Source: a virus. From it: a stretch of 64,000 bases of DNA. The notes under the pieces are model-generated. The model was given only the letters and a program-made list of their open reading frames with translations. It was not told the DNA's origin and did not search any database. Of this stretch, positions 3,597-54,577 are shown piece after piece (the stretch's first letter is position 1; the number at the start of each line of letters is the position of its first letter). The position numbers were made by a program, and so were the translations under genes. Location: the IMG/VR virus record IMGVR_UViG_3300024999_001421; one strand, 5' to 3'.

Positions 3597-3989
3597 ATGA
3601 TGCAAGAAGGGGAGTTCTGTTTTTCGCTAACCGATTCAGAGCAAAGTTACCATTCCTCATTTAAAACCAAAGAGGAGGCGATAGTTGAGGGTAAGAACGA
3701 AGCAAAATTCTATAAAAAGGATAAATTTTATGTAGGCGAAATAAAGACAGTTGCGCTTCCGTGTGTTGACGTGGATTATATTCTTGATAATTGCACCGAA
3801 AGCATGATAGAGGAATATGGCGAGGTAGCAGAAAGTTACCTTTGTTGTTTGCCGCAAGAAGATAGAGACAGTTTACAGAATAAACTTGACGATGTTTTTC
3901 ATAAGTGGTTAATAGATAATAACCATGTTCCTGATTTTTTTGCTGTTAAGAATGTCGAGGAAGTAAAGATCGGGCAGGGGGACGATTGA
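3597..3989 (+). CDS. hypothetical phage protein
   Basis: ORF with RBS, overlaps neighbours in operon. Confidence 0.6.
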   Translation: MMQEGEFCFSLTDSEQSYHSSFKTKEEAIVEGKNEAKFYKKDKFYVGEIKTVALPCVDVDYILDNCTESMIEEYGEVAESYLCCLPQEDRDSLQNKLDDVFHKWLIDNNHVPDFFAVKNVEEVKIGQGDD

Positions 3990-4298
3990 TGCCATACGTA
4001 ACAGTAGAGGTTGAAAGCGGCAGGTTAACCCTACTTGGCGGCGACGAGGCAATGAGGGATGTTATCGAACAATACAGTCCTATCGAAAGAGCGTTTAGAT
4101 TGGTATTCGAGGACTCGTACCGCTATCCCGATGGAACTCATCTAAACGTATACGGCAACGTTCGCGGCAGAGGATTGGACGAGCATATACTTTGGTCTGA
4201 TGTGGAGGTAGCTAACTAGCTACAGAATGACAGCAAACAGCACTCATGGCGTTGTATAGACGAGTAAATGTATTTTAGGTATAAACGGAGGTTAGACA

Positions 4299-4580: not shown

Positions 4581-4764
4581 TGAGAGATTTAGAGCGAGCA
4601 ATTGCGGCAGAGGCAGAGGTTGAGAGGTTGCGGAAAGTCTTAGAGGGAGTCTTGGACGGCTCAGTAAATTCTATGGACATACACGAGGCACTTGATGGGT
4701 GTAAATAGTTTTACCCTAACCTACTGCATCCGGTAGGCAGAAACTTTTGACGGGAGGTAATCAA

Positions 4765-4920
4765 ATGTCCGAAGCAGAAAAACAAGAGTTGTTAACGCAG
4801 ATAGAAGCAGGGCAACAAAAGATGTATGCCGCCGTGACTGATTTTGACCTGACTGCTACTGATGTTATACAAGCTTCGCAGGAGTTGGACAAGCTTATTT
4901 TGCAGTATATGAGGGGTTGA
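4765..4920 (+). CDS. Spo0E-family aspartyl-phosphate phosphatase (51 aa, not in ORF track)
   Basis: MSEAEKQELLTQIEAGQQKMYAAVTDFDLTATDVIQASQELDKLILQYMRG: exact SQELD signature, GGGAGG RBS. Confidence 0.85.
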   Translation: MSEAEKQELLTQIEAGQQKMYAAVTDFDLTATDVIQASQELDKLILQYMRG

Positions 4921-5594
4921 GCATGGATATTTTACGACGCATTGATGTTGCTTTATTGCGAATGAAGCAGGTCGGACACGAAAACACAATACATTACAAA
5001 AATTTAGAAAATAAGCGTATATTGGCTGCTTTTGGAAAAGGTAGGGTTATTGACGTAACAGAGGAAACTATTGGGGCAGTAGGTGGATTACTTGCAAGAA
5101 TTAGCATAGCCCACAGAATGGATAAGTTTAATATTGATTTTTAGGGTGGTTGAGTATGGACATAACAAATCCCTATAAGACGATGGATATGTCAGGCATT
5201 GATTATATGATAGATTGGCCTGAACGTGTCGTTTATGTTGATGACTTACAGAAGTTAGCTGAACATTTAGGCACTAATTGGTCGCCGTTGGCCGCGGAAG
5301 TTGAATGGCGAGGGTGGACTTGGAGGAATTTGAGATGAGATTGAATTTATCGGGGGGGGGTGCTGGCAGTAACTAAGGATAAATGTCCGAAGTGCGGTTG
5401 TCGGTCGGTACAGGAAATACCGTCTAAGACTTTTGTCTATAAACTATGTCAGCATTGCAGGCATAAGTGGAGGCAGGGTTATGGGTTTTCGCTCAGAGAA
5501 GCAAATGATCGATATCATTAATGCTACTTTTGGCCTTAACCGTGTCGTTACCGGGTTGGTTATTAGCTAGTTAGCGGCAAAGGAGCAACCGCCT

Positions 5595-5771
5595 TTATTG
5601 CCGGGGTTGCTCCTGGGACTTGTGAGAGAGGGCGTATTCAATGAGGTTACGGACTGCTTCGGCGGTTGGAGGTACTTTGTCTAAGGTTTTGCGGTATTCT
5701 TCGATTTGATTAAGTAGTCTTTGGCTGATGGCAAAATTAAACCTTTTATCGTTCTTCTCTTTATGACACAA
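5595..5771 (-). CDS. ribbon-helix-helix (CopG/Arc-like) regulator (58 aa, not in ORF track)
   Basis: KRFNFAISQRLLNQIEEYRK...PPTAEAVRNLIEYAL; TTG start, no clear RBS. Confidence 0.55.
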   Translation of the reverse strand: MCHKEKNDKRFNFAISQRLLNQIEEYRKTLDKVPPTAEAVRNLIEYALSHKSQEQPRQ

Positions 5772-6036
5772 TTATAAGGGGGTATAGGTTATCACTTGGG
5801 ATCAAATAGTGTCGATTGAACCGAGATTGAAGGTGCTTGCGTCGCGTGCCAGATTTGATGCAAATAAGGATATTCGCGATAAAACTAAGTTATGGTATTC
5901 ATTTTATAAGCCGGAATTATCAAAGTTAGTTGGCTTTCAGAGTACAAACAAAGAACTCCAATTGCCGATAATTTTTGAAATAGCATCATGGAAAATTTGT
6001 GAGTTATTGCGGTACTAAAGGGGGGCGGTTGCCCTG

Positions 6037-6786
6037 TTGAGGGGGTGGTTTAAAGTGAATCGCGACATAATAAAGAGGGCCATTTTTGACGATGCGGAAT
6101 TACTGAGACTTTATATATACCTCCAAGCAGATGCCTATTATGAACCGTACGAAAAATTAATTGACGGTGAAGTAGTGCAACTGGTTCCTGGGCAGGGTAC
6201 GTTTGGCACAAGGCAATTGGCTGGAACATTAAACACTAACCATTCCACTACATACAAAAGACTTAAAAAATTAGAAAAGTTAGGGTTTATAAAAATAGAA
6301 TCTTATAGGGAAATGTCGGTGTTTACCCTGCTTGAAATGGAAATAGAAAAAGTTGAAAAAGTAAACGCTGATGAAACAGATACAGGTCAGGAAACACAAG
6401 GCTTACAGGACTTGCCGGAAGAAGAAAGTAAACAATGCGGAAATGAAAAGGAAACACAAAGTAAAACACTTAAAGAAGGTAGAAGTAATAAAGAAAATAT
6501 ATATACATCAGAATTTGAATTATGGTGGGAAGGTTATCCTAAAAAAGCAGGTAAAGCAGATGCAAGAAAGGCATGGGCGAAATTAAGGAAGTCGGGTAAG
6601 ACTGTTGAAGAAATTACTTTGTATCGAGATAGATATATTACCAAGATACAAGAAGGTAAGACGGAAAAACAATTTATTCTTAATGGCAGCACTTTTTTGA
6701 ATGGTAGATGGGAAGATCACAAAGAAGATAAACCGGAGCAGTCAGCAGTAGAAAGAATCTTAGGTGGAAGGAAATTTATTAAATGA
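6037..6786 (+). CDS. phage replication initiator (wHTH + C-terminal DnaD-like domain)
   Basis: GWFKVNR N-terminus, HTH, FELWWEGYPKKAGK...TFLNGRWED; directly upstream of primase-helicase. Confidence 0.75.
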   Translation: MRGWFKVNRDIIKRAIFDDAELLRLYIYLQADAYYEPYEKLIDGEVVQLVPGQGTFGTRQLAGTLNTNHSTTYKRLKKLEKLGFIKIESYREMSVFTLLEMEIEKVEKVNADETDTGQETQGLQDLPEEESKQCGNEKETQSKTLKEGRSNKENIYTSEFELWWEGYPKKAGKADARKAWAKLRKSGKTVEEITLYRDRYITKIQEGKTEKQFILNGSTFLNGRWEDHKEDKPEQSAVERILGGRKFIK

Positions 6787-28200: not shown

Positions 28201-29799
28201 ATGACTGACCAACAGAAGGAAAAGAAAAAACTATCCGCTCAGAAGTTAAGGGAAAAAGCGGCAGCGAAAGTTGAATTAGAATATCGTAAATCCTCTAAGA
28301 GTGTAGAGTATTTCATAGATAAATACGCTTATATTGAGGATAGAGATGTTCCTGACCTAGTTGCTAAACTTAATTTATGGGACGGTCAGAAGGAAGCGTT
28401 AAGGAAGATTATTGACAGTAAGTTGTCGATTATTCTTAAAGCTAGGCAGTTAGGTTTTACTTGGCTATCTCTTATTTACGGATTGCACGGGGTTATATTT
28501 AGACCTGGATATTCTGTTGTTGCTCTATCTAAGAGGGAAGAAGATGCTAAGGAACTTATTAGGCGTATATGCTTTATTCTTAGGTACCTACCTTCATGGA
28601 TGATTCGTCACGTTAAGGGTACTCCTAAGCAATACCCTAACCCTACATGGGATTCAACAGTATTGTCGGTTACTATCTACCATAAGGGCAAGGAACCTGC
28701 TGTTTTTAACGCTATGTCTGCTGGTCCTGACAGTGGACGTTCTTTCACGGCAAACCTCGTAATACTCGACGAATGGGCGTTTCAGATGTTCGCTAGAGAT
28801 ATTTGGTCTGCTGCTTACCCGACTATTAATCGTCCTACTGGTGGGCAGGTTATTGGGTTGTCTACCGCTAAAAAAGGTACCTTATTTGAGGAAATATTTT
28901 GGAAGGCGTACAACGGTGAAAATACGTTTACGCCTATATTTATGCCTTGGAGTACCGACCCTAGACGTACCCAGGAGTGGTATGAGCAGGTTAAAAAAGA
29001 CTTACCTCATAGTTATATGGCAGAGTATCCAGCGACTCCAGAAGAGGCGTTTACTGCCGGTGAAGGGCAGTTCTTTAAAGAGTTTCGTCGTGATGTGCAT
29101 GTCGTTAAACCGTTTAAGATACCGTCCTGGTGGAAACGGTTCTGCTCTTTAGACTATGGACTTGATATGTGTTCTTGTCACTGGTGGGCAGTATCACCAG
29201 AAGGGATTATGTATGCTTATCGTGAGTTATATCAACCAAACTTAACACTTAGTCAGGCGGCGAAAAAGATTATCTCCATGACACCCAAAGACGAGAAAAT
29301 AAGTTATACGGTTGCTTCTCCTGACTTATGGAATAGACGGCAAGAGACAGGGACAAGCGGCAGGGAGATAATGAACCGTGCCGGGCTAAATAACCTGAGA
29401 AAAGCAAAGCATGAGCGTAAGGCAGGGTGGAGGGCGGTAAGAGAGTATCTGTTAGCTAGGGAAGAAAAGCAGGATATTATGACAGATGAAGGTATTAAGA
29501 CGGAGACTATTTTTACTGCTAAACTAAAAATATTTGATACCTGTAAAAATATGATACGTTGCTTGCCGTTACTTGAACATGATAAAAACGACTCTGAGGA
29601 TGCGGCAGATACTCCACACGAGGTCACGCACAGCAACGAAAGTTTACGCTATTGCGTAATGTCAAGACCTCCCATTTCTAAGGATGAAAAGTTTAACTTT
29701 CCCGATGATATGTCGTTATCTGAGCAGTCAGCAGTTTTAAATAACATTGCGTTTGAGAAAGAATACGAGAAGTTACAGGAACATATTGTAGGTTTTTAA
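28201..29799 (+). CDS. terL: terminase large subunit
   Basis: LKARQLGFT Walker A, VILDE Walker B, C-terminal RNase H-like LDYG...YREL. Confidence 0.93.
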   Translation: MTDQQKEKKKLSAQKLREKAAAKVELEYRKSSKSVEYFIDKYAYIEDRDVPDLVAKLNLWDGQKEALRKIIDSKLSIILKARQLGFTWLSLIYGLHGVIFRPGYSVVALSKREEDAKELIRRICFILRYLPSWMIRHVKGTPKQYPNPTWDSTVLSVTIYHKGKEPAVFNAMSAGPDSGRSFTANLVILDEWAFQMFARDIWSAAYPTINRPTGGQVIGLSTAKKGTLFEEIFWKAYNGENTFTPIFMPWSTDPRRTQEWYEQVKKDLPHSYMAEYPATPEEAFTAGEGQFFKEFRRDVHVVKPFKIPSWWKRFCSLDYGLDMCSCHWWAVSPEGIMYAYRELYQPNLTLSQAAKKIISMTPKDEKISYTVASPDLWNRRQETGTSGREIMNRAGLNNLRKAKHERKAGWRAVREYLLAREEKQDIMTDEGIKTETIFTAKLKIFDTCKNMIRCLPLLEHDKNDSEDAADTPHEVTHSNESLRYCVMSRPPISKDEKFNFPDDMSLSEQSAVLNNIAFEKEYEKLQEHIVGF

Positions 29800-29974: not shown

Positions 29975-32089
29975 ATGGACTGGAAAAAACCATTTCGTGC
30001 GTTAAAAAAGAAGGTGAGAGAAATAGTAGCACCTGCTGTAGAATACGATCAAGAGACCCTTGATTTGCTGAAATACTGGCAAGATCAGTTCGAGATTGAC
30101 CGTCAAACGAAGAAAAAGTACGATCTTCTTATGGATTCGTGGGAAAATATGTATAACGGTAATCGCGAATTCGAGAACGTCAACAATAGGCAAGATAAGG
30201 AAGCGAGAACAGTTGTTAACTTCCCTCGCCTAATTATAGAAGCGTTAATTGACATGACTATTCCTGACCATGACTTTAAACCTGTTACCGCTGCCGATGA
30301 AGTGCCGGTTAATGCTTTAAAAAGTTACGTCGGTTATGTGCTGAGAAGTTCTTCACCTTCACTTGAAGAAATGAATATGTCAGACGAGCGCAGAGTAAGT
30401 AAACTTGGCGGTACATTCAAAAAGGTTCACTGGAATAACAACATTAAACGTGCTGGATATGTCGGTGAGATTGAGATTAGCAACCCTCACCCGAAGGATA
30501 TTATACCTAACAAATCATCTATTAACTTCGGCGACGACATGGAGCATTATCATCATCCGGTTAACCGTACACAAAAGTATATTCTTCGCAAATGGAAGGA
30601 TATAACGAGTGACATGCTGGAAGAAAAGGCAATTCTGTATGCCGAGTATGACGAGATATTGGGCGACCAAAGAATAACTACCGTTACCGACACTACCGGA
30701 GTTTCTAAGGATACGGGACTTGGCAAGTATACAATTATTGAGACTACCTACCGCGACGATGACGGAGATATTTGTAAGTTGTGGTGGTCCGGTGATTTAC
30801 TGATTAAGCACCTGCCGAAGTTCTTTTATCGTAGGGACGAGGAAACAGGCGAACCCTATATGACTGAAACTATTGAAGCAGGATCTATGTTGAGAAAGAG
30901 TATAGACGAGCAAGGTAATCCTATCTACTCGAAAATAGACAGCGATATTGAAGCAGAACACTACATACCTACTTGCTGGGATATAGTCTACCAACCGTTT
31001 ATTATGCGTGATAAATGTTGTTGGGGTATATCTATTATGGAAGATGTTTGGGACTTGCAGGAGAGTATTAAGAAAGCAGTGCATATGTATGAAGAATCTT
31101 TCCTTCGTGGTAGGAAGAAGATTTTAACCGATTCTCTTGAAGTGCAAAGAAAACTTATGGACCCAACATCAGAGATAATCCATGTTAATGATCCGAATTC
31201 TGTCAAGGAAGTTGATTTAAGTACCAATATTGACGGTATTCAATTGGTTGATAAATTCAAAGAATGGATGCAACTTATTACCGGCGTAACCGATGCTTCA
31301 TTAGGAGTTCATCAACCAGGAGTAACTTCCGGAGATCAAGCGCAGGCATATATCAGTCAGTCAAGTAATAAATTAGCGATTAAGTCTGCCTATAAGTCAA
31401 CCTCATACAAGACTCTTTACCGCACTATTGCCGAGTTTGCATTGGCGTTCTGTGATGATGATAGACCTTTTCGTATTACAGGAGAGAAGGGCGAGAATAA
31501 ATACGGTCAGTTTAACCGCTTGTCTATGCTTCGTGACGTTAACGGTGACTTAATTTATCCAGACTTCGATATTGAGATTAGTGCAGAAGTCGGATTCATG
31601 AAGAATAAGTCGGAAATGATGAATTCTATCGTGTCTCTTGCAGGGCAGGGACGTTTTGAACCTACTCCTGGAAATATGCTGATACTGAAAATTCTTGATA
31701 AAATCGGTGTTCCGCACCTTAAGGAAGTTATTGGGCAAATGGAGCAGGATATACAGCAGGCACAGGAGATGCAGGCAAAGCAGGAAGAGCAGGCGAAGCA
31801 GATACAGGAACAGCAACTACAGCAGAGTACCGATATGATGCTTGCTAAACAGCAGCATGAGAAAGAACTTGCTGTTACGAAACAGCAGGGAGAACTAAAC
31901 CGCCAGCAGCAATCGCACGACCTTGAAAGTAGTAAAGAGGCTATGAGCGGCGAGTTGCAACAGGGCGCAGTTATGAGTTTTGTGGACAAGTTAAATCAGA
32001 TTAAAGAGAACGATCCTGATACCTTTGTTCAAATCATGCAACTACCGGCAGAACAGCAGGTGCAGGCGGTAATGAGTATGGTAGGTTAG
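29975..32089 (+). CDS. portal protein (P22-like) with Q-rich C-terminal coiled coil
   Basis: position after TerL, 704 aa, WGISIMED...LQ, ITGV...LG...SG. Confidence 0.85.
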   Translation: MDWKKPFRALKKKVREIVAPAVEYDQETLDLLKYWQDQFEIDRQTKKKYDLLMDSWENMYNGNREFENVNNRQDKEARTVVNFPRLIIEALIDMTIPDHDFKPVTAADEVPVNALKSYVGYVLRSSSPSLEEMNMSDERRVSKLGGTFKKVHWNNNIKRAGYVGEIEISNPHPKDIIPNKSSINFGDDMEHYHHPVNRTQKYILRKWKDITSDMLEEKAILYAEYDEILGDQRITTVTDTTGVSKDTGLGKYTIIETTYRDDDGDICKLWWSGDLLIKHLPKFFYRRDEETGEPYMTETIEAGSMLRKSIDEQGNPIYSKIDSDIEAEHYIPTCWDIVYQPFIMRDKCCWGISIMEDVWDLQESIKKAVHMYEESFLRGRKKILTDSLEVQRKLMDPTSEIIHVNDPNSVKEVDLSTNIDGIQLVDKFKEWMQLITGVTDASLGVHQPGVTSGDQAQAYISQSSNKLAIKSAYKSTSYKTLYRTIAEFALAFCDDDRPFRITGEKGENKYGQFNRLSMLRDVNGDLIYPDFDIEISAEVGFMKNKSEMMNSIVSLAGQGRFEPTPGNMLILKILDKIGVPHLKEVIGQMEQDIQQAQEMQAKQEEQAKQIQEQQLQQSTDMMLAKQQHEKELAVTKQQGELNRQQQSHDLESSKEAMSGELQQGAVMSFVDKLNQIKENDPDTFVQIMQLPAEQQVQAVMSMVG

Positions 32090-34917: not shown

Positions 34918-35889
34918 ATGGCAGTTTTAATTCAAGAAAGCGGAGATTTTGAACAGTTAGTTGGGAAATATGAACATGCGCTCTTGGAATTTTGGCAGGA
35001 CGGTTTTACCGATGCTATTCAAGATAGTATGATTGACGAGTTGTATACTCCTGAGCAATCAGATAACCCCACTGAGGCAATCGGTGAGATGGTTGGGGCG
35101 ATTGACTACAGTAAGTGGAACGGTGAATTCACTTATGGCACCATGAAACAAGGCGATACGAAGATCTGGACCCCAATCGTGTGGCAGGCGGGCATGGAGT
35201 ATGACAGATTCTTACTGTCTAATGCTAAACTTATTAATTTAAAGGATGATTTTTCCGGTTTCTCTATTGGCGCAGCAAGACACCGCGAAGCGTGCGCATC
35301 CGGTTTACTTACTTATGCCGACCAGACAAGTTTTATGGTTAACGGAACTCCTGTTAACTGGACTTTGACAGCCAATGGGTTGCCGCTTGCTTCAAACGCT
35401 CAGACTTCTGCTAACTATGGAAGCACTCAGGATAACTTAGAGGCCCTAGAACTCAACGACGAGAATCTCGAAATTTTATGTCAAAAAATGTTTGATGTTA
35501 AGGACAGTTCGGGCAAGGACGCAAATCTTCAACCTGATACTTTAATTGTGCCTACAGCCCTTCGCAAGAAAGGTTTGGAATTAATCGGCGGTGAAGGTAA
35601 AGTAGATTCTTCCGACAACAACCCGAACATTTACAACGGTTCGATGAAATTGATTGTCTATAAGCAATTCCGTCGTCAAGCAGGAAAGACCGGTCAACCA
35701 TGGTGTGTTATGGACTCTAAGATGGCTAAAAAATCCATGAAGTGGATTAATCGCCTAGAATCTGGGGATAAATACGATATTATCTCTTGGAAGAATATGG
35801 AGAATCAGGTCTGGAAAGTAGGTTCCATAATGTGGTATTCTTGTGGCAGTAAGTCGTGGAGGCCTTTCCAATTCAGTATTCCTGTGTAA
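34918..35889 (+). CDS. major capsid protein (Mu gpT-like)
   Basis: NGLPLAS, LQPDTLIVPTAL, NNPN, G...WR C-terminus. Confidence 0.82.
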   Translation: MAVLIQESGDFEQLVGKYEHALLEFWQDGFTDAIQDSMIDELYTPEQSDNPTEAIGEMVGAIDYSKWNGEFTYGTMKQGDTKIWTPIVWQAGMEYDRFLLSNAKLINLKDDFSGFSIGAARHREACASGLLTYADQTSFMVNGTPVNWTLTANGLPLASNAQTSANYGSTQDNLEALELNDENLEILCQKMFDVKDSSGKDANLQPDTLIVPTALRKKGLELIGGEGKVDSSDNNPNIYNGSMKLIVYKQFRRQAGKTGQPWCVMDSKMAKKSMKWINRLESGDKYDIISWKNMENQVWKVGSIMWYSCGSKSWRPFQFSIPV

Positions 35890-46982: not shown

Positions 46983-49900
46983 GTGATTTTATTGGCCTAC
47001 GATTTATACAAAGGGCCGTATAGTAACTTTAATTCATACAGTCAAAGTAGAGATACTTCCAGGGAAGATGCCATTAGAAGGTTGCTTAGTTTTTCGAGCA
47101 ACCAACAAATAACTAACGATCCTGGCATGGCAGATGTAGATTATAGCACTACAATGCCTCCTGTACCGGAAATGAAAGTACCTATGCCACCTAAAAGAAG
47201 TCTATATGAATCTCTGGATAATAAATTTGGCGGGGTGTTGCCGGGAGGTACTATATTTAAGCCAGGAGATTACGGAATAAGCGAAAAGTTTGCGGAAAAT
47301 AACCCAACTATTAGTCGGGGATTAGCGACGATTGCTAGTCCTTTCAAGGCTATCATGGATAATCCATTTATGAATCGTTCAAGTCAAACTGCTGGGGAAA
47401 TCGTTACATTAACCGACAGGCCAGAAAAGACTTCTACCGGTAATGATAACAGGGACATGATTGCCGATTTAGTTGGTGGACTTGTTGGTTTTGGTGCTAA
47501 TCCTGAGAGCGCAGGGGCAAAACTATTTGGACTTAGCGAAAAAGCTATAGCTAAAGGATTGCAGTATATCCCCAAAGCTGAAAATTTGCCTAAAATATTG
47601 CAAACAGGTGCTAAGATTGGCGGGGCGACAGTCCCGTATGAAGCAACCGTAGCGGCACTGAACGACCGTGAATTTAAACCGGGAGAAGCGGCAGAGGCAG
47701 GCTTGTCTAATGCTGCCCTGGCTATGCTATTACATGGTGCAGGGAGTGCCTTAAGCAAACGCAATACACCGCCCAAAACTACTGATTTTAAGATGCCTGA
47801 GTATAAAGAACCGGATATGTCAGATTTTACGCCGGAGGAACTGGCTAATTTCAGGAGTAAGTCAAGTCTTGGGGAGATGATAACTCCTGAGACAGTCACC
47901 ACTAAAGAGGTAGCGGCGGCGCAGAGAACGCTTAGAAATACGCTGAATGTCGAAAAGGCCAATCAGATACTAAACGAATTCCCGGAACTTGAAAGCGAGT
48001 TTCCGCACTTTAGACTACAGCAAGGCGATACAGTTATTCTGCCAAATGGAAAAGAAGCAATAGTTAAAACAGCGGACAAGATGATTATTCAAGTTGATGT
48101 TGATGGAAAGACGGTTAGTATTGGTCGTAAAGTCGTTAAGGTTCCGGAGGTTAAGACAGAAGTTCCGGAGGTTGTGAGTGAGGCAATGCCGGAAGTGCCG
48201 GAGACTACGACTCCTGAGATTAAACAGCAACCCGTTATTAGCGATGTTCCGCGACTAAATAACAGAAGTGGTGCCGAGACTTTTGCTGACGAAAATATAC
48301 CTGATGTATCAGTCAAGCAGGAACCAATTGTCGCGCAGGAAATATTGCCGCAATTAACAGGCGAACCTGTTAAATTAACAGCAGAACAGCAACAGTCGAT
48401 AGATAAGTTAGTCAAGGATTCTGGATTCAATTCCCTCGAGGATGCTCGAAAGGCAATAACATCATATAGAAATATGGTTAATGACGGACAGGTATTTTAT
48501 CGTGGGGAAATGGTTCCAGAGGGAGCAAAAGGTAAGAAAAATAATATTATCCGTCAAAAAAGCATAGAAGATGTTCTTAATTGGACTCCTGATAATCTAA
48601 TCAAGAAGCATGAAGCAAACATAGCAAGACAAGAAAATATAAAGGAAAAGGCACAGGAAATTCTTGATACTACTGATCCGCTTAAGGATTACGGTAAACG
48701 CGACAATGCTAAAATGGAAATAGAGAATTCTAACTATTGGATTGGTAATTATCAAAAGGAGATTGATAAACTTAGGAAGCAGATAAAAAATGACGAAGAA
48801 ATAAGTAAGATAGCAGAAGAAAACAATCTCCTTTACATTACAAGTCAAAAAGAAAATGCCCTGTCTTATGCTAAGCAACTCGAAGGTAAGTCTGAAATAT
48901 TATTTGGAGAGAAGCCAGAAGGCTATAACCCAACCGTGTATGAGTTAAAAGGAAAATTTGACAATACTTTTGACTTGACTAAGTATGAGAATGGTCTAAT
49001 AAGTTTAGACGAAGTAGATAACCTATTAAACGACTTAGGAATTAAGCTAGATGATAAGCAGTTTAACGAATTTATAAATAGACTTGGTATTGATGAAATG
49101 GAACAGAATAGCGGTCAAGTATTTGGTCTATTCCGTGGTGAAAACCTTCCTATCATGCTTAATGCGCTTAAAAAAGGTAAATACGATTCGGTTCATTATG
49201 CGGAAGGATTGCAAGATAACTGGATCGTCTTAGATAGAAATAAGGTTGCTATTAAGGATGATTTAGATAAGGCAAGTAAACTTGATTCTGTAACGCAAGA
49301 CAAGATACTTAGATTTAAGTCTGGGCAGGACAAACCAGCACCTCCCGAAGTATTAAAGGACTATCCTGAGTTATCCGCAGAAGTAGGAAGTAAGTCTACA
49401 TCGGAAACTAAAGTCATGGCAGAGGATATCGGACTAAAACCGGAAAAAGCGGAAACTTATGACGAAGGGACGATTGGGGCGGCAAGGTTAACCGTACCGG
49501 AAAAGCAATCAACTCTCCCCGGTACTGACGAAAAAGTCAGGTCGTTTAATGTTTCCGTTGCTAATTCTGAAATAGCTTCTCCGGACGTTAAAATAGCCAA
49601 TATTATGGAAATGTATCCAGGAGGACTAGGGGCATATAGCCCCATAAAACTACGTGAGGTAGACGTTGAAGCACAAAATTTAATTTCCCAGAACATAGAA
49701 AAGGCTACTCGCTTTGTTCTTGAAGGAGAAGAACCTTCTGCACTTAAAACAGCAACAGGTATTCGTTTAATTGAAAAATACCAAAACGCCGGTAATTACG
49801 AGAGGGCCATAGATGTTTCGCTAGCTATGGCAGAGAGACTAACGAAAGTTGGTCAAGAAATTAGTGCCGCTAGAATTATGGGGGCACTAAAACCTGATGG

Positions 49901-51959
49901 TATTTTAGTTTTTGCACAACGACAAATAAATAAACTTAACAGCGGTAAAAAATTCGGTAAGGACATTGAATTAACTCCCGAAATGGCTAAAATACTAAAG
50001 GAACTTGCCAATAGACTTAAAAATGCAACCGATGAAAATGCCAGATTGGAGGCAGGTCAAGAATTACAGGGAGCACTGAATTCTCTAAAACCTTCTGGGA
50101 TACTTAGAAAAATAGATTCGGCGCAAACCATTTCGATGTTATTAAATCCTAAAACTTTAATTAGGAACACAGTTGGCAATGAAATGTTTTATCGCCTAGA
50201 AAGGTTAAATAAAATAGTTGCTACACCTATTGACTGGACAGTTAGTAAACTGACCGGAGCAGACCGCCAGGTAACATTTAGAACGGCTGGGCAAGGTGGT
50301 TACTGGCAGGGATTTTTCAAGGGCGCAAAAGCTGGTTGGAAAGGTGTTAACCCAGAAGGTATACAGACACAATACGACTTGGGTCGATCACCGGCATTTA
50401 ATATTAATCCCGAAAGAGCTAAAAACGCAAATACGACAACTGGGAAAGTTGTTGGTGGCACATTTGATTTTGCTGAAAAAACTATGGCTTATCTTGAAAG
50501 AACTCTAGGTGCAGCCTTGAAAGGTTTTGATTTTGCGGCATATACCAGGGCAAAAAATAACACTATTGGAGAACTAGCTACCTTAAAGGCTATAAATACT
50601 ACTGGAAAAGCTGATAAGACTATAGTACAGGGGTTTATGAAAGATATTGAGGATAATGTCCTGAATATTGCTGACCAATATGGAAAATATGTTACATTTC
50701 AAGATAACAATGTTATTTCTCGTGGACTACAAGGAGTAAAGGATGCCTTAAACATAAATCAGGATTGGGGTGTAGGGAGTGTTATTCTTAAATTCCCACG
50801 CACACCGGGGGCTTTAATAGCAAGAGGATTAGAATACTCGCCTGCTGGCTTTCTAAAGTCTGCCTACGAACTAGCAAAAGTAACAGGTATATTTAAGGGC
50901 AATCCTAGTCAAAGAGAAACAACACTTGCGTTATCAAGGGCCATAACTGGCACAGCAGGATTAACTGGATTAGGTTATTTTCTTGCCGATCAAGGAATTA
51001 TAACAGGTTCAATAGAAAAAGATAAAGACCTAAGAGATTTACAGCGACAGACAGGGCAAGGACAATATCGTATAAATCTAAGCGCATTATCTAGGTGGGT
51101 GCAAAGCGGTTTTAATAAAGATACTGCGCAACCTATTGCTGGTGATAAAATAATTAACTATGATTGGGCGCAGCCAATTGCAATGGCACTAAGCATAGGC
51201 GCAAATATCAGCAAAAACCTTAATGATGGACAAGGCAAACTAGATAATATATCCTCAACTATTGCTGGTAGTCTTGAAGGTGCTTTAAATACAGTTGCCG
51301 AGCAACCTGTTTTGCAAGGTCTTACACGGGCAGTACAAGGATATGATATGGGAGAAAATGTAACCAATACAGTTAAAAATATTCCCTCTAGTTTTGCACC
51401 AACATTAGCTAATCAAGTAAGACAGTATATAGACAATACAACTCGCTCAACATATGACCCCTCATGGGTAGAGGAATCGAAAAATAAAGTTAAAGGCAAA
51501 ATACCGGGAATTGCTGGCAACTTGCCTGTCGCATATGATACTTTCGGAAAACCGAAGGAAATATATCAAGATGGAGGTAATGATGCTTTCAATGTATTCT
51601 TTAATCCAGCATTTACATCGAAATACAAAGTTCCAGAAGAAGCGAAGTTGGCCATAGAAACATTTAGAAATACCGGAGAAACAAAGCAACTACCTAGAGT
51701 TGCATCTAAGTCATTTACTATTAGTGGGCAAAAAATAGAACTAACTGCCAAAGAATATAGCGATATGCAAAGGATTGTTGGAGAAAGAACACTAAAAGAA
51801 TTTTCCAGAATACCGCAAAATGCTAGTGATGACAAAAAGATACGCAGGATGATCGATGCTTTAGGTAAAGCCGGACTAGAGGGCAGAAAATTTGTATTAC
51901 AACAAAGGGGTATTGGCTTTAGGAATAAGGGCAATGGGATAGTGCTTAGACAACAATAA
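46983..51959 (+). CDS. large internal virion/ejection polyvalent protein with ART-like domain
   Basis: 1658 aa; FYRG...LYITS...ALSYA...VYEL...FDL...KYDSV; helical C-terminal half (MLLNPKT.IRN, FPRTP). Confidence 0.7.
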   Translation: MILLAYDLYKGPYSNFNSYSQSRDTSREDAIRRLLSFSSNQQITNDPGMADVDYSTTMPPVPEMKVPMPPKRSLYESLDNKFGGVLPGGTIFKPGDYGISEKFAENNPTISRGLATIASPFKAIMDNPFMNRSSQTAGEIVTLTDRPEKTSTGNDNRDMIADLVGGLVGFGANPESAGAKLFGLSEKAIAKGLQYIPKAENLPKILQTGAKIGGATVPYEATVAALNDREFKPGEAAEAGLSNAALAMLLHGAGSALSKRNTPPKTTDFKMPEYKEPDMSDFTPEELANFRSKSSLGEMITPETVTTKEVAAAQRTLRNTLNVEKANQILNEFPELESEFPHFRLQQGDTVILPNGKEAIVKTADKMIIQVDVDGKTVSIGRKVVKVPEVKTEVPEVVSEAMPEVPETTTPEIKQQPVISDVPRLNNRSGAETFADENIPDVSVKQEPIVAQEILPQLTGEPVKLTAEQQQSIDKLVKDSGFNSLEDARKAITSYRNMVNDGQVFYRGEMVPEGAKGKKNNIIRQKSIEDVLNWTPDNLIKKHEANIARQENIKEKAQEILDTTDPLKDYGKRDNAKMEIENSNYWIGNYQKEIDKLRKQIKNDEEISKIAEENNLLYITSQKENALSYAKQLEGKSEILFGEKPEGYNPTVYELKGKFDNTFDLTKYENGLISLDEVDNLLNDLGIKLDDKQFNEFINRLGIDEMEQNSGQVFGLFRGENLPIMLNALKKGKYDSVHYAEGLQDNWIVLDRNKVAIKDDLDKASKLDSVTQDKILRFKSGQDKPAPPEVLKDYPELSAEVGSKSTSETKVMAEDIGLKPEKAETYDEGTIGAARLTVPEKQSTLPGTDEKVRSFNVSVANSEIASPDVKIANIMEMYPGGLGAYSPIKLREVDVEAQNLISQNIEKATRFVLEGEEPSALKTATGIRLIEKYQNAGNYERAIDVSLAMAERLTKVGQEISAARIMGALKPDGILVFAQRQINKLNSGKKFGKDIELTPEMAKILKELANRLKNATDENARLEAGQELQGALNSLKPSGILRKIDSAQTISMLLNPKTLIRNTVGNEMFYRLERLNKIVATPIDWTVSKLTGADRQVTFRTAGQGGYWQGFFKGAKAGWKGVNPEGIQTQYDLGRSPAFNINPERAKNANTTTGKVVGGTFDFAEKTMAYLERTLGAALKGFDFAAYTRAKNNTIGELATLKAINTTGKADKTIVQGFMKDIEDNVLNIADQYGKYVTFQDNNVISRGLQGVKDALNINQDWGVGSVILKFPRTPGALIARGLEYSPAGFLKSAYELAKVTGIFKGNPSQRETTLALSRAITGTAGLTGLGYFLADQGIITGSIEKDKDLRDLQRQTGQGQYRINLSALSRWVQSGFNKDTAQPIAGDKIINYDWAQPIAMALSIGANISKNLNDGQGKLDNISSTIAGSLEGALNTVAEQPVLQGLTRAVQGYDMGENVTNTVKNIPSSFAPTLANQVRQYIDNTTRSTYDPSWVEESKNKVKGKIPGIAGNLPVAYDTFGKPKEIYQDGGNDAFNVFFNPAFTSKYKVPEEAKLAIETFRNTGETKQLPRVASKSFTISGQKIELTAKEYSDMQRIVGERTLKEFSRIPQNASDDKKIRRMIDALGKAGLEGRKFVLQQRGIGFRNKGNGIVLRQQ

Positions 51960-51966
51960 GACCGAC

Positions 51967-52326
51967 TTAATTAAGTCGGTCTTTCTCTGTGGCGTTTACT
52001 AATGTATCTACTGCGATATAGCCAATTATTAATTTAATCCCATTATACAACATTATTATTAATGTATTTCTAATAGTATCCGCTTCTGACAGCCAGTAAC
52101 TACCCAGAAAAATAAGTAGAAAAGCTCTACTGTATCTAAAAGTGAGTGTGTTGTTGGTTAGAAAGTTTTTTAGTCTCTTAGTTAAAGCATTGTCTGGGAA
52201 CTTAGTATGCATTAGAATAGTAAGAGTAAAAAGTACGGCAAGCACCCATATAGGTATATATAGTACCAATAGAGAGTATAAGAAAGTAATTATAGTTATC
52301 ACCCCTTTTAAAACTATATTCAACAT
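51967..52326 (-). CDS. membrane protein (moron)
   Basis: hydrophobic, low GC. Confidence 0.55.
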   Translation of the reverse strand: MLNIVLKGVITIITFLYSLLVLYIPIWVLAVLFTLTILMHTKFPDNALTKRLKNFLTNNTLTFRYSRAFLLIFLGSYWLSEADTIRNTLIIMLYNGIKLIIGYIAVDTLVNATEKDRLN

Positions 52327-52346
52327 GGTGGATTAGTTTCCTTCTT

Positions 52347-52550
52347 TTATTTACCGTCGACATATTCAAATAGATCTCCCGGTTGACATCTAAGTGTAGC
52401 ACAAAGACGATCTATAACTTCCAATGAAACATATTCGTTGGTATTTAGTTTTGCCATAGTGCCTCCAGATATTTTGGCTTGTTTCATTAAATCTTGTTTT
52501 TTTATATTTTTATCAATCAACATTTTTTGGAATAGTTTATAGCTAATCAA
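52347..52550 (-). CDS. Cro/C1-type HTH (HTH_26) regulator
   Basis: ISYKLF..L....IKKQDL...VSLEVIDRLC..L.CQPGDLFEYV. Confidence 0.88.
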   Translation of the reverse strand: MISYKLFQKMLIDKNIKKQDLMKQAKISGGTMAKLNTNEYVSLEVIDRLCATLRCQPGDLFEYVDGK

Positions 52551-52719
52551 ATTAATTTACCTCCTGTTTACTATATCTTAAATATATATATTATTATATC
52601 AAAAAATATTCGACAAATCAAAGATAATTATATTGACTTATATTTATGATATGTTATAATAATATTTAAGAAGTTGTAAATAATTACATACCAATAAGGT
52701 GTCTTAGGAGGAATACGGC

Positions 52720-53352
52720 ATGGGCAAAAACATTCTAACGGCAACAATCGAAATAAAAGGAATTAGACCTCTGTTGTGGCATGTATTTGGTCCTGATTCT
52801 TTGCCACTTGAAAAACAAGAGAGGACAGGAGTTGCCGGACACGATCCGGAGGAATGGCGCAAAACATATGTAGCAACCAAGAGTGGACAGTTATATTTAC
52901 CTGGTTCTTATTTCTTCGGAACATACATTGCAGGCGCTAAGTTCATTAAGAAGGGCAAAGGCTCAATTCAAAGTTTGGTATCAGCAACATTGCAGGTACT
53001 TGATGATAAGGTATTGGTTAATCGTAATTTACCGGAAGATATTCACGAAAAACCGCATAAGTATTATAATGCTGACGAAGAATTGGTTTATATTGACGTT
53101 CGCTCAGTACGTAATCCGTCAACCAAGTCTAGAAACATTCGTTATCGCGTTGCTACTTGCCCCGGATGGGAGTGTAAATTTTCAATAATGTTCGATAAAA
53201 CGGTTGTTAGTCGCCAAGAGATGCACTCTGCTATTATTGATGCAGGTAAATTGTCCGGCATTGGCGATGGTCGTTCTGTTGGATATGGAAGATTTGATGT
53301 ATTATCTTTTGAAATACAGGAGGAAGATAATGCCGAGGAAAAGACCTCCTAA
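52720..53352 (+). CDS. solitary Cas7/Csm3-like RAMP protein
   Basis: IEIKGIRPLL (beta1), LYLPGSYF, C-terminal Gly-rich loop GIGDGRSVGYGRF. Confidence 0.8.
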   Translation: MGKNILTATIEIKGIRPLLWHVFGPDSLPLEKQERTGVAGHDPEEWRKTYVATKSGQLYLPGSYFFGTYIAGAKFIKKGKGSIQSLVSATLQVLDDKVLVNRNLPEDIHEKPHKYYNADEELVYIDVRSVRNPSTKSRNIRYRVATCPGWECKFSIMFDKTVVSRQEMHSAIIDAGKLSGIGDGRSVGYGRFDVLSFEIQEEDNAEEKTS

Positions 53353-53620
53353 AGAAATATGGCAAAAACTAAGAACAATAGTCTGGGAACGAGATAAGGG
53401 TAAATGTAAGCACTGTGGCAAACTAGTTGACTTAGATAAATGTCACATAGATCATATTCGTTCTGGTAAGTTAGGAACAAATAAGTTAAGCAATCTTAGA
53501 ACTCTATGTCGTTGCTGTCATGTTTTGCGTGAGGATGGGCGACATAGAGGGATGATTAGCAAGGCACTTAAAGATGGTATTATTCCTCCGAATTGGCGTG
53601 AGTTGGTTTGGGGTGATTAA
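53330..53620 (+). CDS. small HNH endonuclease (96 aa) overlapping RAMP stop
   Basis: W..LR..VWERDKGKCKHCG...HIDHI...GTNKLSNLRTLCRCCH; AGGAGG RBS inside RAMP gene. Confidence 0.9.
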   Translation: MPRKRPPKEIWQKLRTIVWERDKGKCKHCGKLVDLDKCHIDHIRSGKLGTNKLSNLRTLCRCCHVLREDGRHRGMISKALKDGIIPPNWRELVWGD

Positions 53621-53639
53621 TATACTGTATAATTAATCA

Positions 53640-53734
53640 GGTCGGGAACGAAGCGGAATGGTGAGTTGCGGTCCGGAGTGGTACGGAGAGCTGAGGCATG
53701 GCACGTTAAGGTGCGCAATGAAATGGTAAGGATT
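53640..53734 (+). repeat. pentameric G(G)HNN array 1 (19 units), candidate guide RNA
   Basis: G at every 5th base 19/19, GG 13/19; TATAAT at 53628-33 immediately upstream. Confidence 0.85.
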
Positions 53735-53738
53735 CGAA

Positions 53739-53796
53739 ACTACCCTTCGGGGTAGTCCTACAGGTTAGCCTCCTGTAGTTGACAAGATGGGCTAAC
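53739..53796 (+). ncRNA. structured linker: UUCG hairpin + H-type pseudoknot
   Basis: ACTACCC-TTCG-GGGTAGT; CTACAGG-ttagcct-CCTGTAG with loop complementary to GGGCTAA at 53789-95. Confidence 0.75.
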
Positions 53797-53798
53797 AT

Positions 53799-53883
53799 GG
53801 AAAGGTCTGGACTGGAACGGAACGTAGGGGCATGGAAAGTTCCGGAGTGGTTTGGTTCGGATTGGCTAGTTAAGGCAAGGGTA
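53799..53883 (+). repeat. pentameric G(G)HNN array 2 (17 units), candidate guide RNA
   Basis: G at every 5th base 17/17, GG 14/17. Confidence 0.85.
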
Positions 53884-53885
53884 AT

Positions 53886-53925
53886 AAGAGAAATAACCAC
53901 TTCATATGAAGTGGTTATTTCTCTT
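53886..53925. terminator. perfect 40-bp palindrome, likely bidirectional terminator
   Basis: AAGAGAAATAACCACTTCAT|ATGAAGTGGTTATTTCTCTT between convergent units. Confidence 0.75.
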
Positions 53926-54124
53926 CCGGCACATATTCAAATAAATCTCCTGGCTGACATTTGAGGACTTGACACAACTTGCTGATCTGCTCTATCTCTA
54001 TTCTCCTAGAAGTACCGTGCCATAACTGACTTACTGTATTTGGCCTAATTCCTGTCATAATGGATAATTGTTTCATTGTTATTTTTCTTTTACCCATCAT
54101 ATCTGATACTTTTATTATCATCAT
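53915..54124 (-). CDS. Cro/C1-type HTH (HTH_26) regulator
   Basis: QLSIMTGIRPNTVS...LC.VL.CQPGDLFEYV. Confidence 0.88.
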   Translation of the reverse strand: MMIIKVSDMMGKRKITMKQLSIMTGIRPNTVSQLWHGTSRRIEIEQISKLCQVLKCQPGDLFEYVPEEK

Positions 54125-54292
54125 TGCATTTTACACCTCCTACCGCATACAGTATAACACTAAGAGTTATCGAATTGCAATATTAAATTTCAAAATAACT
54201 CCTAAAGCTATTGACATGAAATTTATAAAGATATATAATAACCTTAGAGGTTAAAGCATATATATAGAAGTTAAATACGGGGAGGTAGAAAG

Positions 54293-54577
54293 ATGGAAAA
54301 AAGTTTCAAGGACAGTTTTGCGGAGTTATGCGCTGACCGGGCGAGTGATGCAATCGTATCGGCGCGACAGAAGGATACTGAGTATGTCGAGGTGATGGAC
54401 AAGCTAAAAATTGCAAGTAATCGGGTTAGTCAATTATTGAGTCCAGATAATCGGGGATTACTTACACAATTACTTGATGCTTATTCCTACAGGCAGATTT
54501 GCGAAACTCGTTTAGCATATGAGCAGGGCATGAGGGATGGGTTGCGCTTGAATAAGATAGTGGGAGGTATGGCATGA
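54293..54577 (+). CDS. hypothetical (DUF6809-like) protein
   Basis: AYEQGMRDG motif; GGGGAGG RBS. Confidence 0.55.
   Translation: MEKSFKDSFAELCADRASDAIVSARQKDTEYVEVMDKLKIASNRVSQLLSPDNRGLLTQLLDAYSYRQICETRLAYEQGMRDGLRLNKIVGGMA

What the first reader, a model, noticed from the sequence alone, without database searches (positions are those of the whole stretch)
53640..53734. Array 1 decodes to a 19-dinucleotide string that reads as stop-free codon prefixes
Seen: GGT CG|GGA AC|GAA GC|GGA AT|GGT GA|GTT GC|GGT CC|GGA GT|GGT AC|GGA GA|GCT GA|GGC AT|GGC AC|GTT AA|GGT GC|GCA AT|GAA AT|GGT AA|GGA TT. The third base is never G. A TATAAT at 53628-33 would put a transcription start almost exactly at unit 1. 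NN string: CG AC GC AT GA GC CC GT AC GA GA AT AC AA GC AT AT AA TT. Inference: if one target base is skipped per unit (NNx), it reads like codons with the wobble position ignored (R T A I/M D/E A P V T D/E D/E I T K/N A I I K/N, or the reverse complement), which would resist synonymous escape. I found no match in this window by eye.
Basis: partly seen in the sequence, partly recalled or inferred. Interest (0 to 1): 0.85.

Follow-up and report, generated by a model that had tools for sequence, protein, structure and literature searches.

The report
Phage VIPR guide-RNA array with target
The five-base repeat is a guide RNA of a phage-borne VIPR system, a CRISPR-like RNA-guided DNA-recognition system first described in 2026.

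Summary
There is a G at every fifth base for 19 units (53640-53734) and again for 17 units (53799-53883); nothing comparable occurs elsewhere in the 64 kb.

The locus is a VIPR system. The 210-aa gene upstream is a Vipr protein (profile match to the solved SUSP1 Vipr, E 1e-26, with a Cas7/Csm3-like fold). It overlaps a 96-aa HNH gene. The two arrays are vrRNAs separated by a type II hammerhead-like element.

- With a 1-nt skip, units 2-15 of array 1 match 28 of 28 bases in five metagenomic phage contigs (three alleles).
- The site lies in frame on codons RTAIDAPVTDDMTKA of a 2029-aa gene, with the skipped base at the wobble position.
- Skips of 0, 2 and 3 nt, and other seeds, gave only chance hits.
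- The target gene is the rival's version of the window phage's own 1658-aa gene, and the site starts exactly where the two diverge.
- The nearest relative's first guide hits the next 14 codons of the same gene.

All of this follows the VIPR preprints of 2026 (GGY/NN repeats, 1-nt skip rule, wobble alignment, HNH accessory genes, hammerhead-spaced arrays). This scan has also met VIPR arrays before on other DNA. It is a new member of a known kind, with minor variations.

The parts
52720..53352 (+). vipr gene (210 aa, P0001): the RAMP-fold protein that polymerises on the repeats
   Evidence: phmmer against PDB 36pp_D 'SUSP1 Vipr protein', E 4.7e-6. The profile of 44 homologues gives E 1.2e-26 over the full length. 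The AF2 model has pLDDT 94.6. The top Foldseek hits are Csm3/Cas7 RAMPs, E 1e-9. Also matches phrog_4652.
53330..53620 (+). HNH accessory (vap-like) gene, 96 aa, overlapping the vipr 3' end by 23 nt
   Evidence: PF01844, E 1.8e-6. D41-H42, N55 and H64 are invariant in 11 homologues. The gene lies next to vipr and arrays in all loci fetched through HNH and through Vipr.
53628..53633 (+). TATAAT, a possible -10 element for vrRNA1
   Evidence: Present in the sequence. No -35 partner was found by the consensus scan. A/T-rich TATA-like boxes sit at the same place in L001, L002 and L004.
53640..53714 (+). vrRNA1 guide part, units 1-15 (GGH-NN)
   Evidence: Units 2-15 match 28/28 bases in L017, L019 and L034-L038 with a 1-nt skip. 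Unit 1 faces a synonymous Arg codon.
53715..53734 (+). vrRNA1 units 16-19, a semi-conserved 3' constant part that is not target-matched
   Evidence: No match to the target. Similar terminal units are found in arrays of other loci, with lower NN entropy.
53735..53798 (+). type II hammerhead-like linker. GAA 53736-38; stem III 53739-45/53750-56; GUC with predicted cut after C53757; stem I 53758-64/53772-78; core 53779-85 (UUGACAA); loop I TTAGCC 53765-70 pairs with GGCTAA 53790-95
   Evidence: Rfam RF02276 Hammerhead_II hits the orthologous position in L002 (36.3 bits, gathering score 37, E 8.5e-4) and L001 (35.8 bits). The window copy has the same architecture, with perfect stems of different sequence. 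The window copy itself has no Rfam hit.
53799..53863 (+). vrRNA2 guide part, units 1-13
   Evidence: The best natural match is 25/26 bases, in L028, on the motif K-M-LTTGINPVFSL of an LPD38 large polyvalent protein gene.
53864..53883 (+). vrRNA2 units 14-17, the constant 3' part (GGCTA GTTAA GGCAA GGGTA)
53886..53925 (.). 18-bp perfect palindrome closing the vrRNA unit. It overlaps the stop of the convergent HTH gene
   Evidence: Terminator hairpins with T-runs sit at the same position in L001, L002 and L004.
49518..49634 (+). the phage's own, non-targeted allele of the target segment, inside its 1658-aa gene (46983-51959)
   Evidence: The own protein reads VRSF|NVSVANSEIASPDVKIAN where the target reads VRSF|QRTAIDAPVTDDMTKAGLLV. 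The best self-match of the guide is 22/38, which is chance level.

Best explanation
Window 52720-53925 is a phage-borne VIPR locus consisting of vipr, an HNH accessory gene and two vrRNAs. Array 1 is the first vrRNA. By analogy with the solved SUSP1 complex (inferred, not shown here), one Vipr protomer binds each pentamer, holds G1, G2 and base 3 away, and presents N4-N5. The dinucleotides of units 1-15 pair with the template strand of a double-stranded DNA target in which every third base is skipped. The natural target, found here, is a 15-codon, allele-specific stretch of the large (about 2000 aa) gene of closely related competing phages. This gene lies at the end of the structural module and may encode a virion protein. 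The guide has the same sense as the mRNA, so it reads DNA and not the transcript. The phage's own copy of the gene differs exactly in this stretch and is spared. Units 16-19 form a constant 3' end. A hammerhead-like element after them probably cuts vrRNA1 from vrRNA2 (inferred). The consequence for the rival is either transcriptional block or cleavage by the co-encoded HNH nuclease. I favour cleavage, but that step is inferred only from conserved gene linkage and an intact catalytic motif.
For: Periodicity and conservation of the arrays.
Vipr identity. The residues that read G1 and G2 in SUSP1 are largely kept: H17 corresponds to H21, D177 to D183, R138 to R143 and R179 to R185, from the alignments and the text of 10.64898/2026.04.26.720927.
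Target: units 2-15 match 28/28 bases in two IMG/VR contigs and five metagenome contigs, of which two are probably the same contigs by length. The chance of the 10 flanking bases matching is about 1e-6 per seed hit.
Frame: NN falls on codon positions 1-2 of RTAIDAPVTDDMTKA.
Controls: other gap sizes gave 0, 1 and 0 hits without extension. The other two seeds gave 2 and 4 chance hits. Shuffles in the target contigs reached at most 27/38, against 31 observed. No self-target was found.
Independent replicate: array 1 of the nearest relative (L001) matches 26/28 bases on the next 14 codons (GLLVDIYAEGPGAY) of the same gene in L019, a contig from the same sample as L001; the expected number of chance hits is about 4e-8.
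The target phages are mosaic relatives of the window phage, with 87-94% nucleotide identity in the head module.
Base 3 of the guide does not match the skipped base (3-4 of 14), so only NN carries information.
Published rule and biology: 10.64898/2026.04.26.720920 and 10.64898/2026.10.15.759431.
Against: The TATAAT has no -35 partner. Unit 1 and units 16-19 do not pair with the known targets. The invariance of NN among target alleles is also what purifying selection on the protein would give, so it does not by itself show selection by the guide. The window's hammerhead core deviates from consensus (UUGACAA; no Rfam hit). The target contigs are metagenomic fragments with unknown host. The match for array 2 is imperfect (25/26 over units 1-13) and lies on a conserved protein motif, which inflates the number of seed hits. 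The role of the HNH protein is untested.
Confidence: 0.9

Rival explanations
1. It is a VIPR vrRNA, but the system only blocks transcription (CRISPRi-like, as shown for type II VIPR). On this reading the adjacent HNH protein is an unrelated phage HNH, for example a packaging or homing nuclease, and not an effector.
For: The characterised SUSP1 and P. fulva systems act by repression. Small HNH genes are common in phages, and two more exist in this window according to first-stage note e1-5704052. The target lies about 770 codons into a 2029-codon gene, where a roadblock would still truncate the transcript.
Against: The HNH gene overlaps vipr by 23 nt. It is found beside vipr and the arrays in every locus, whether fetched through HNH (10/10) or through Vipr (4/4), with the arrays on either side of it. 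Its catalytic D-H...N...H residues are invariant. The discovery paper lists HNH among the vap proteins and ties nuclease-bearing types to target destruction.
Confidence: 0.25
2. The repeats are a protein-sponge or attenuator RNA. On this reading it resembles TRAP-binding (G/U)AG repeats or CsrB-type GGA decoys, titrates a host RNA-binding protein, and the NN bases carry no information.
For: The spacing is regular and the G-rich motifs (GGA/GGU) recur about 36 times. This was my first guess before any search (text of my reading).
Against: The adjacent gene is a Vipr homologue. The NN bases have near-maximal entropy yet give a 28/28 in-frame match to a rival phage gene at one gap size only. A second phage's guide hits the adjoining codons.
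Confidence: 0.02
3. The target matches are coincidental or historical. On this reading the guides are decayed or are directed at something not present in the databases searched.
For: Only units 2-15 match and no 19/19 target was found. No hit was found in 185,579 species' genomes.
Against: The probability of the extension is about 1e-6 per seed hit, and about 1e-16 per site for 29/30. The matching part ends exactly where the conserved constant units begin. There are five contigs with three alleles, and the replicate in L001.
Confidence: 0.04

Closest known systems
VIPR type II systems of Escherichia phage SUSP1 and a Pseudomonas fulva prophage (bioRxiv 10.64898/2026.04.26.720920; structures 10.64898/2026.04.26.720927, PDB 36pp)
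   Same: A single small RAMP protein, homologous over its full length (E 1e-26 by profile). Tandem pentamers with fixed GG and hypervariable NN. 1-nt skip code with the skip on the wobble base. Targets in competing mobile elements. No self-targeting. Carried on a phage.
   Different: Only about 20-25% identity. The accessory gene is an HNH nuclease instead of the DNA-binding vap1. Arrays have 19 and 17 units against the published 9-16. Base 3 is H (A in 34% of units of this clade) instead of Y. G2 is relaxed (G in 103 of 116 units), and the G2-stacking Trp178 of SUSP1 is Gly here (G-loop GIGDGR). The spacer between vrRNAs is hammerhead-like instead of a pseudoknot tail alone.
Nuclease-associated VIPR types III and V and hammerhead-interspersed vrRNA arrays (same paper, figs S19-S22)
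   Same: HNH-domain vap proteins and hammerhead ribozymes between vrRNAs are both reported. Their guides find targets in IMG/VR at 80% or more NN match.
   Different: Those types are described as enriched in host defence islands. This locus sits in a phage genome with terminase, portal and head genes, between the large gene that ends the structural module and the Cro-like regulator. I could not assign the type number because the paper's trees and tables are not held.
Class 1 CRISPR Cas7 backbone filaments (Csm3/Cmr4, type III; type VII Cas7)
   Same: The best structural matches of the model (Foldseek E 1e-9, TM about 0.5). One protomer binds per repeat of the guide, with periodic base flipping.
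   Different: The period is 5 nt on the RNA and 3 nt on the target, rather than 6 and 6. The guide is made of repeats with only 2 informative bases per unit. There is no CRISPR array, cas1/cas2 or other cas genes.
Type II hammerhead ribozyme (Rfam RF02276)
   Same: In L001 and L002 the linker matches the full model just under the gathering score. The window copy has identical helix lengths, GAAAC, GUC and a loop-I pseudoknot.
   Different: The window core is UUGACAA instead of CUGAUGA. C3U plus G8A would keep the C3-G8 pair as U-A. From my own knowledge of hammerhead mutagenesis, such swaps can retain activity, but this was not tested here.
TRAP-binding trp leader RNA and CsrB-type decoys
   Same: Regularly or densely repeated short G-containing motifs in a non-coding RNA.
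   Different: No informative variable positions are expected in those RNAs. Here the variable positions encode a target and the partner protein is a RAMP.

Membership tests
VIPR system | A Vipr protein: a minimal RAMP (RRM core, G-loop, thumb) homologous to the described Vipr proteins | tested here: met
   PDB 36pp_D 'SUSP1 Vipr protein': E 4.7e-6 for the single sequence and E 1.2e-26 for the profile, residues 4-190 against 2-190. AF2 pLDDT 94.6. Best folds are Csm3/Cas7. G-loop GIGDGR...GYGRF, with G180, G190 and R143 invariant.
VIPR system | vrRNA: tandem pentanucleotide repeats with conserved GG(Y) and hypervariable NN, next to vipr | tested here: met
   19 and 17 units. In the near clade, G1 is G in 115/116 units, G2 in 103/116, base 3 is never G, and N4/N5 have entropy of 1.86/1.91 bits. 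The deviation is that base 3 is H, not Y. The paper allows 'related consensus' repeats (NNNGG, YNNNG, NNNNG).
VIPR system | Non-contiguous recognition: NN pairs with a target that has one skipped base per unit | tested here: met
   Computational test only. 28/28 bases with skip 1. Skips 0, 2 and 3 gave 0, 1 and 0 hits with no extension. Shuffles. Replicate with the L001 guide.
VIPR system | Targets lie in competing mobile elements, with no self-target | tested here: met
   The targets are mosaic relatives of the window phage. The best self-match is 22/38, at chance level.
VIPR system | An accessory vap gene with a DNA-directed function in the operon | tested here: met
   An HNH gene (PF01844) overlaps vipr and is conserved in 14/14 related loci. 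Its functional link to Vipr is not shown.
VIPR system | A structured 3' element or processing signal bounding each vrRNA | tested here: met
   A hammerhead-like linker follows array 1 and a palindrome/terminator follows array 2.
VIPR system | vrRNA is expressed, co-purifies with Vipr, and the complex binds dsDNA | not testable with these tools
No wet-lab data.
Type II hammerhead ribozyme (RF02276) | Conserved core CUGAUGA...GAAA...UH with three helices, open at stem II | tested here: inconclusive
   The orthologous elements in L001 and L002 score 35.8 and 36.3 bits, just under the gathering score of 37. The window copy keeps the helices, GAAAC and GUC, but has U3 and A8 and only 2 clear stem II pairs, with no Rfam hit.
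CRISPR-Cas (class 1) | CRISPR repeat-spacer array, adaptation genes, multi-subunit effector | tested here: not met
   No direct-repeat/spacer array. Only one RAMP gene plus HNH in the locus.

The most novel reading that the evidence does not exclude
This is a nuclease-armed VIPR carried by a phage itself rather than by a host defence island. Its guides are written against the allele-specific 29-codon segment of a large structural-module gene shared with its closest competitors. Two sister phages carry guides that abut exactly: codons 1-15 in the window phage and the next 14 codons in L001. Such tiling would point to an as yet unknown process that converts a contiguous stretch of a rival's coding sequence into new GGH-NN guides, a primitive form of 'adaptation'. 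It would also suggest that relaxed G2/H3 recognition (Trp178 replaced by Gly) marks a distinct decoding variant.
Probability: 0.15. Interest if true: 0.65.

Novelty: new member of a known kind. Interest (0 to 1): 0.35.

Why it matters
This locus gives an independent, purely computational confirmation of the VIPR 1-nt-skip code in a clade only about 20-25% identical to the characterised SUSP1 protein. The natural target is clear and the self versus non-self logic is visible. The guide reads the one segment in which the rival's gene differs from the carrier's own copy, and the skipped base falls on the wobble position, so synonymous changes cannot help the rival. The locus also combines several features in a phage genome: an HNH accessory nuclease, a hammerhead-like spacer, 17-19-unit arrays and a GGH repeat. 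That combination is useful for mapping how far the repeat-recognition rules can drift, and for choosing nuclease-type VIPRs to test. It does not open a new category: the mechanism, the wobble logic, HNH accessories and ribozyme-spaced arrays are all in the 2026 preprints.

Tried and rejected
- Rfam on the window, at gathering and E<=10 thresholds: nothing for the arrays or the linker.
- blastn of 53200-54200 against the GenBank phage collection: no match.
- No whole genome is held for the window.
- The seeds of units 1-9 and 11-19 of array 1 gave only chance hits, 21-26 of 38. In hindsight this is because unit 1 and units 16-19 do not pair.
- Genome-contig scans for the array 1 and array 2 targets: 0 hits each, so no host or prophage assignment.
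- The 3-nt-gap pattern did not recover the window's own contig from IMG/VR, so the window is not in that collection.
- Array 2 has no target in the two array-1 target contigs.
- The target contigs have no vipr in their assembled parts, but they are 46% and 66% complete.
- Complex prediction of Vipr with HNH gave no verdict, which is not evidence either way.
- The supplementary tables of the discovery paper are not held, so the VIPR type number could not be assigned.
- G-quadruplex, TRAP-like and CsrA-sponge readings were considered and dropped once the Vipr homology and the target match were found.
- The idea that base 3 pairs with the skipped base was rejected (3-4 of 14).

Full report
**Observation.**
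- G is at position 1 in 19/19 units and at position 2 in 13/19.
- Position 3 is T/A/C and never G. Positions 4 and 5 are variable.
- A second array of 17 units lies at 53799-53883.
- The only other G run of 8 or more at period 5 in the 64 kb is a weak 9-unit run at 54310-54350, inside an ORF.
- TATAAT is at 53628-33, but a sigma-70 scan finds no -35 partner for it.

**Surroundings.** The window is a tailed-phage genome.
- It encodes a large terminase at 28201, a portal at 29975, a head protein at 34918 and a primase/helicase at 6783.
- After a 1658-aa gene (46983-51959) come a 210-aa ORF (52720-53352; no Pfam hit, phrog_4652) and a 96-aa HNH gene (53330-53620, PF01844) that overlaps it by 23 nt.
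- The two arrays follow, then an 18-bp palindrome (53886-53925), then a convergent Cro/C1-type HTH gene and an Ant-like gene.

**Conservation.** The HNH protein retrieved 10 IMG/VR loci at 62-91% identity.
- Every one has G-period-5 arrays beside the HNH gene. The arrays lie after it in the near relatives, and between the 210-aa gene's homologue and HNH in the distant ones.
- Loci fetched through homologues of the 210-aa protein also carry HNH and arrays.
- Over 116 units of the near clade, G1 is G in 115 and G2 in 103. Base 3 is A39/C23/T54/G0, and N4 and N5 have 1.86 and 1.91 bits of entropy.
- In the distant clade G2 is the invariant base and base 3 is mostly Y.
- The last three or four units of each array are similar between phages (GGTAA, GGCAA, GGGAT/GGGTA/GGATT) and have lower entropy.

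**What it is.** A literature search and earlier notes of this scan both pointed to VIPR systems. The sources are:
- bioRxiv 10.64898/2026.04.26.720920: discovery, GGY/NN vrRNAs, 1-nt skip rule, skip base on the wobble position, seven types, vap genes including HNH domains, and hammerhead-spaced arrays;
- 10.64898/2026.04.26.720927: cryo-EM, one protomer per repeat, G1 read by H17/D177, G2 by R138/W178, and Y3 in a pocket;
- 10.64898/2026.10.15.759431: codon periodicity prevents escape.

I tested membership directly.
- The 210-aa protein matches the PDB chain 36pp_D 'SUSP1 Vipr protein' at E 4.7e-6 as a single sequence. A profile of 44 homologues matches it at E 1.2e-26 over the whole length.
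- The AlphaFold model has pLDDT 94.6, and its best structural neighbours are Csm3/Cas7 RAMPs at E 1e-9.
- From those alignments, SUSP1 H17, R138, D177 and R179 correspond to H21, R143, D183 and R185 here.
- The G2-stacking W178 is Gly184 (G-loop GIGDGR). This fits the relaxed G2 of this clade, but it is a correlation and not a test.

**Testing the decoding.**
- *Self-targets.* No self-target exists in the window or in the related loci at skips 0-2; the best is 22-23 of 38, equal to shuffles.
- *IMG/VR seeds with a 1-nt skip.* I scanned with nine-unit seeds (18 specified bases). Units 1-9 gave 2 hits and units 11-19 gave 4, and none extended, reaching 21-26 of 38. Units 6-14 gave 3 hits. Two of them (L017, L019) extend to a perfect match of units 2-15, 28/28 bases. 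The chance of the ten flanking bases matching is about 1e-6.
- *Other gap sizes.* The same nine units with gaps of 0, 2 and 3 nt gave 0 hits, 1 hit (25/38, no extension) and 0 hits.
- *Shuffles in the target contigs.* In the two complete target contigs only skip 1 stands out, at 31/38 against a shuffled maximum of 26-27.
- *Metagenome scan.* Units 3-13 found five contigs, of which two are probably the same as the IMG/VR ones by length. They represent three alleles. All 28 NN bases are identical while at least 7 of the 14 intervening bases differ.

**The target.**
- In L019 the site lies in a 2029-aa ORF, on the coding strand and in frame. NN falls on codon positions 1-2 and the skipped base on position 3.
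Unit 1 (CG) faces AGA, another Arg codon.
- The guide has the sense of the mRNA, so it can pair only with the template DNA strand. This agrees with DNA recognition.
- The 2029-aa protein is a homologue (44-54% identity in blocks) of the window's own 1658-aa protein.
- The two proteins are nearly identical up to ...EKVRSF and again from ...GAY. The guide covers the start of the divergent segment between these points.
- The target phages are mosaic relatives of the window phage, with 87-94% nucleotide identity in the head module of G001.
- In G002 the slot that holds VIPR in the window carries other cargo genes.

**Replicates.**
- Array 1 of L001, the nearest relative, matches 26/28 bases on GLLVDIYAEGPGAY. 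These are the 14 codons that follow the window's site in the same gene. L019 comes from the same sample as L001, and the expected number of chance hits in the searched space is about 4e-8.
- Array 2 of the window (seed units 3-11) gave 7 hits, 6 of them on the motif K-x-LTTGINPVF-x-L of LPD38 'large polyvalent protein' genes. The best, L028, matches 25/26 bases over units 1-13, and the mismatching units are again the constant 3' ones. This match is weaker evidence, because a conserved protein motif inflates seed hits.
- Base 3 of the guide agrees with the skipped target base only 3-4 times in 14, so the code uses NN only.

**The linker.**
- The element between the arrays, which a first-stage note described as a hairpin plus pseudoknot, is a type II hammerhead in the near relatives. 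Rfam RF02276 matches the full model at the orthologous place in L002 (36.3 bits, E 8.5e-4) and L001 (35.8 bits), just under the gathering score of 37.
- The window copy has the same layout. It has GAAAC, a 7-bp stem III, GUC with a predicted cut after C53757, a 7-bp stem I, and a loop I that pairs with GGCTAA at 53790-95. The stems are perfect but differ in sequence.
- Its core reads UUGACAA instead of CUGAUGA, and it has no Rfam hit. C3U with G8A would preserve the C3-G8 pair as U-A. Whether it still cleaves is open.
- Hammerhead-spaced vrRNA arrays are reported in the discovery paper.

**Mechanism, shown and inferred.**
- *Shown here:* the repeat anatomy, the Vipr homology and fold, the conserved linkage with HNH, the 1-nt-skip in-frame match to rival phage genes, the absence of self-targets, and the hammerhead homology in relatives.
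- *Taken from the papers:* filament assembly, sequestration of GG(Y), and dsDNA binding through a gapped R-loop.
- *Inferred:* transcription from near 53634-53640, ribozyme processing, and cleavage of the rival's DNA by the HNH protein.
  - The HNH catalytic D-H...N...H residues are invariant in 11 homologues.
  - Repression alone remains a live alternative.

**Verdict.** It is remarkably so, since it predicted the target peptide. The element is a VIPR guide RNA, a kind published in April-October 2026 and already met several times by this scan on other DNA. It is a new member of a known kind. Its modest variations are an HNH accessory gene on a phage, a GGH rather than GGY repeat, a relaxed G2 with Gly in place of Trp178, 17-19 units per array, constant 3' units, and a variant hammerhead. 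Its natural target is well defined.

Noticed in passing
window 53735-53798; L001 3399-3464; L002 3383-3448: The spacer between the two arrays is a type II hammerhead in the relatives (Rfam RF02276, 35.8-36.3 bits). The window copy keeps all helices and GUC, but its core is UUGACAA (C3U and G8A, a possible compensatory pair).
   Followed up: partly
window 54310-54350: A third run of G at period 5 (9 units, only 2 of them GG) lies inside the DUF6809-like ORF 54293-54577. L001 has an 8-unit run at a similar place (3975-4010). It is probably chance, but it could be a decayed array or a decoy.
   Followed up: no
window 46983-51959; L019 3612-9701; L026 3244-7362; L028 3-3149: Both guides of the window aim at very large phage genes: a 1658/2029-aa family without Pfam hits, and 1049-1373-aa LPD38/PBECR3 'polyvalent' proteins. 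What the first family does is unknown.
   Followed up: partly
L021 (G002) 4750-6100 versus window 51960-53885: The slot between the large gene and the Cro-like HTH gene is a variable cargo site. It holds VIPR in the window phage and in L001, and unrelated 180-aa and 126-aa ORFs in the target phage.
   Followed up: partly
L039 725-1600: In one metagenomic contig the Vipr ORF is called at 251 aa and runs into HNH-coding sequence. This is either a Vipr-HNH fusion or a frameshift.
   Followed up: no
L005 2628-2975; L008 2074-2996 and 3299-3368; L040 2990-3205 and 3500-3560: Distant relatives carry three or four arrays placed before and after the HNH gene. Their spacers are short and not hammerheads, so the array architecture varies within this one Vipr-HNH family.
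   Followed up: no
window 53886-53925: A perfect 18-bp palindrome closes vrRNA2 and contains the stop codon of the convergent HTH gene (53915-54124, minus strand). It may act as a bidirectional terminator or as an operator.
   Followed up: no
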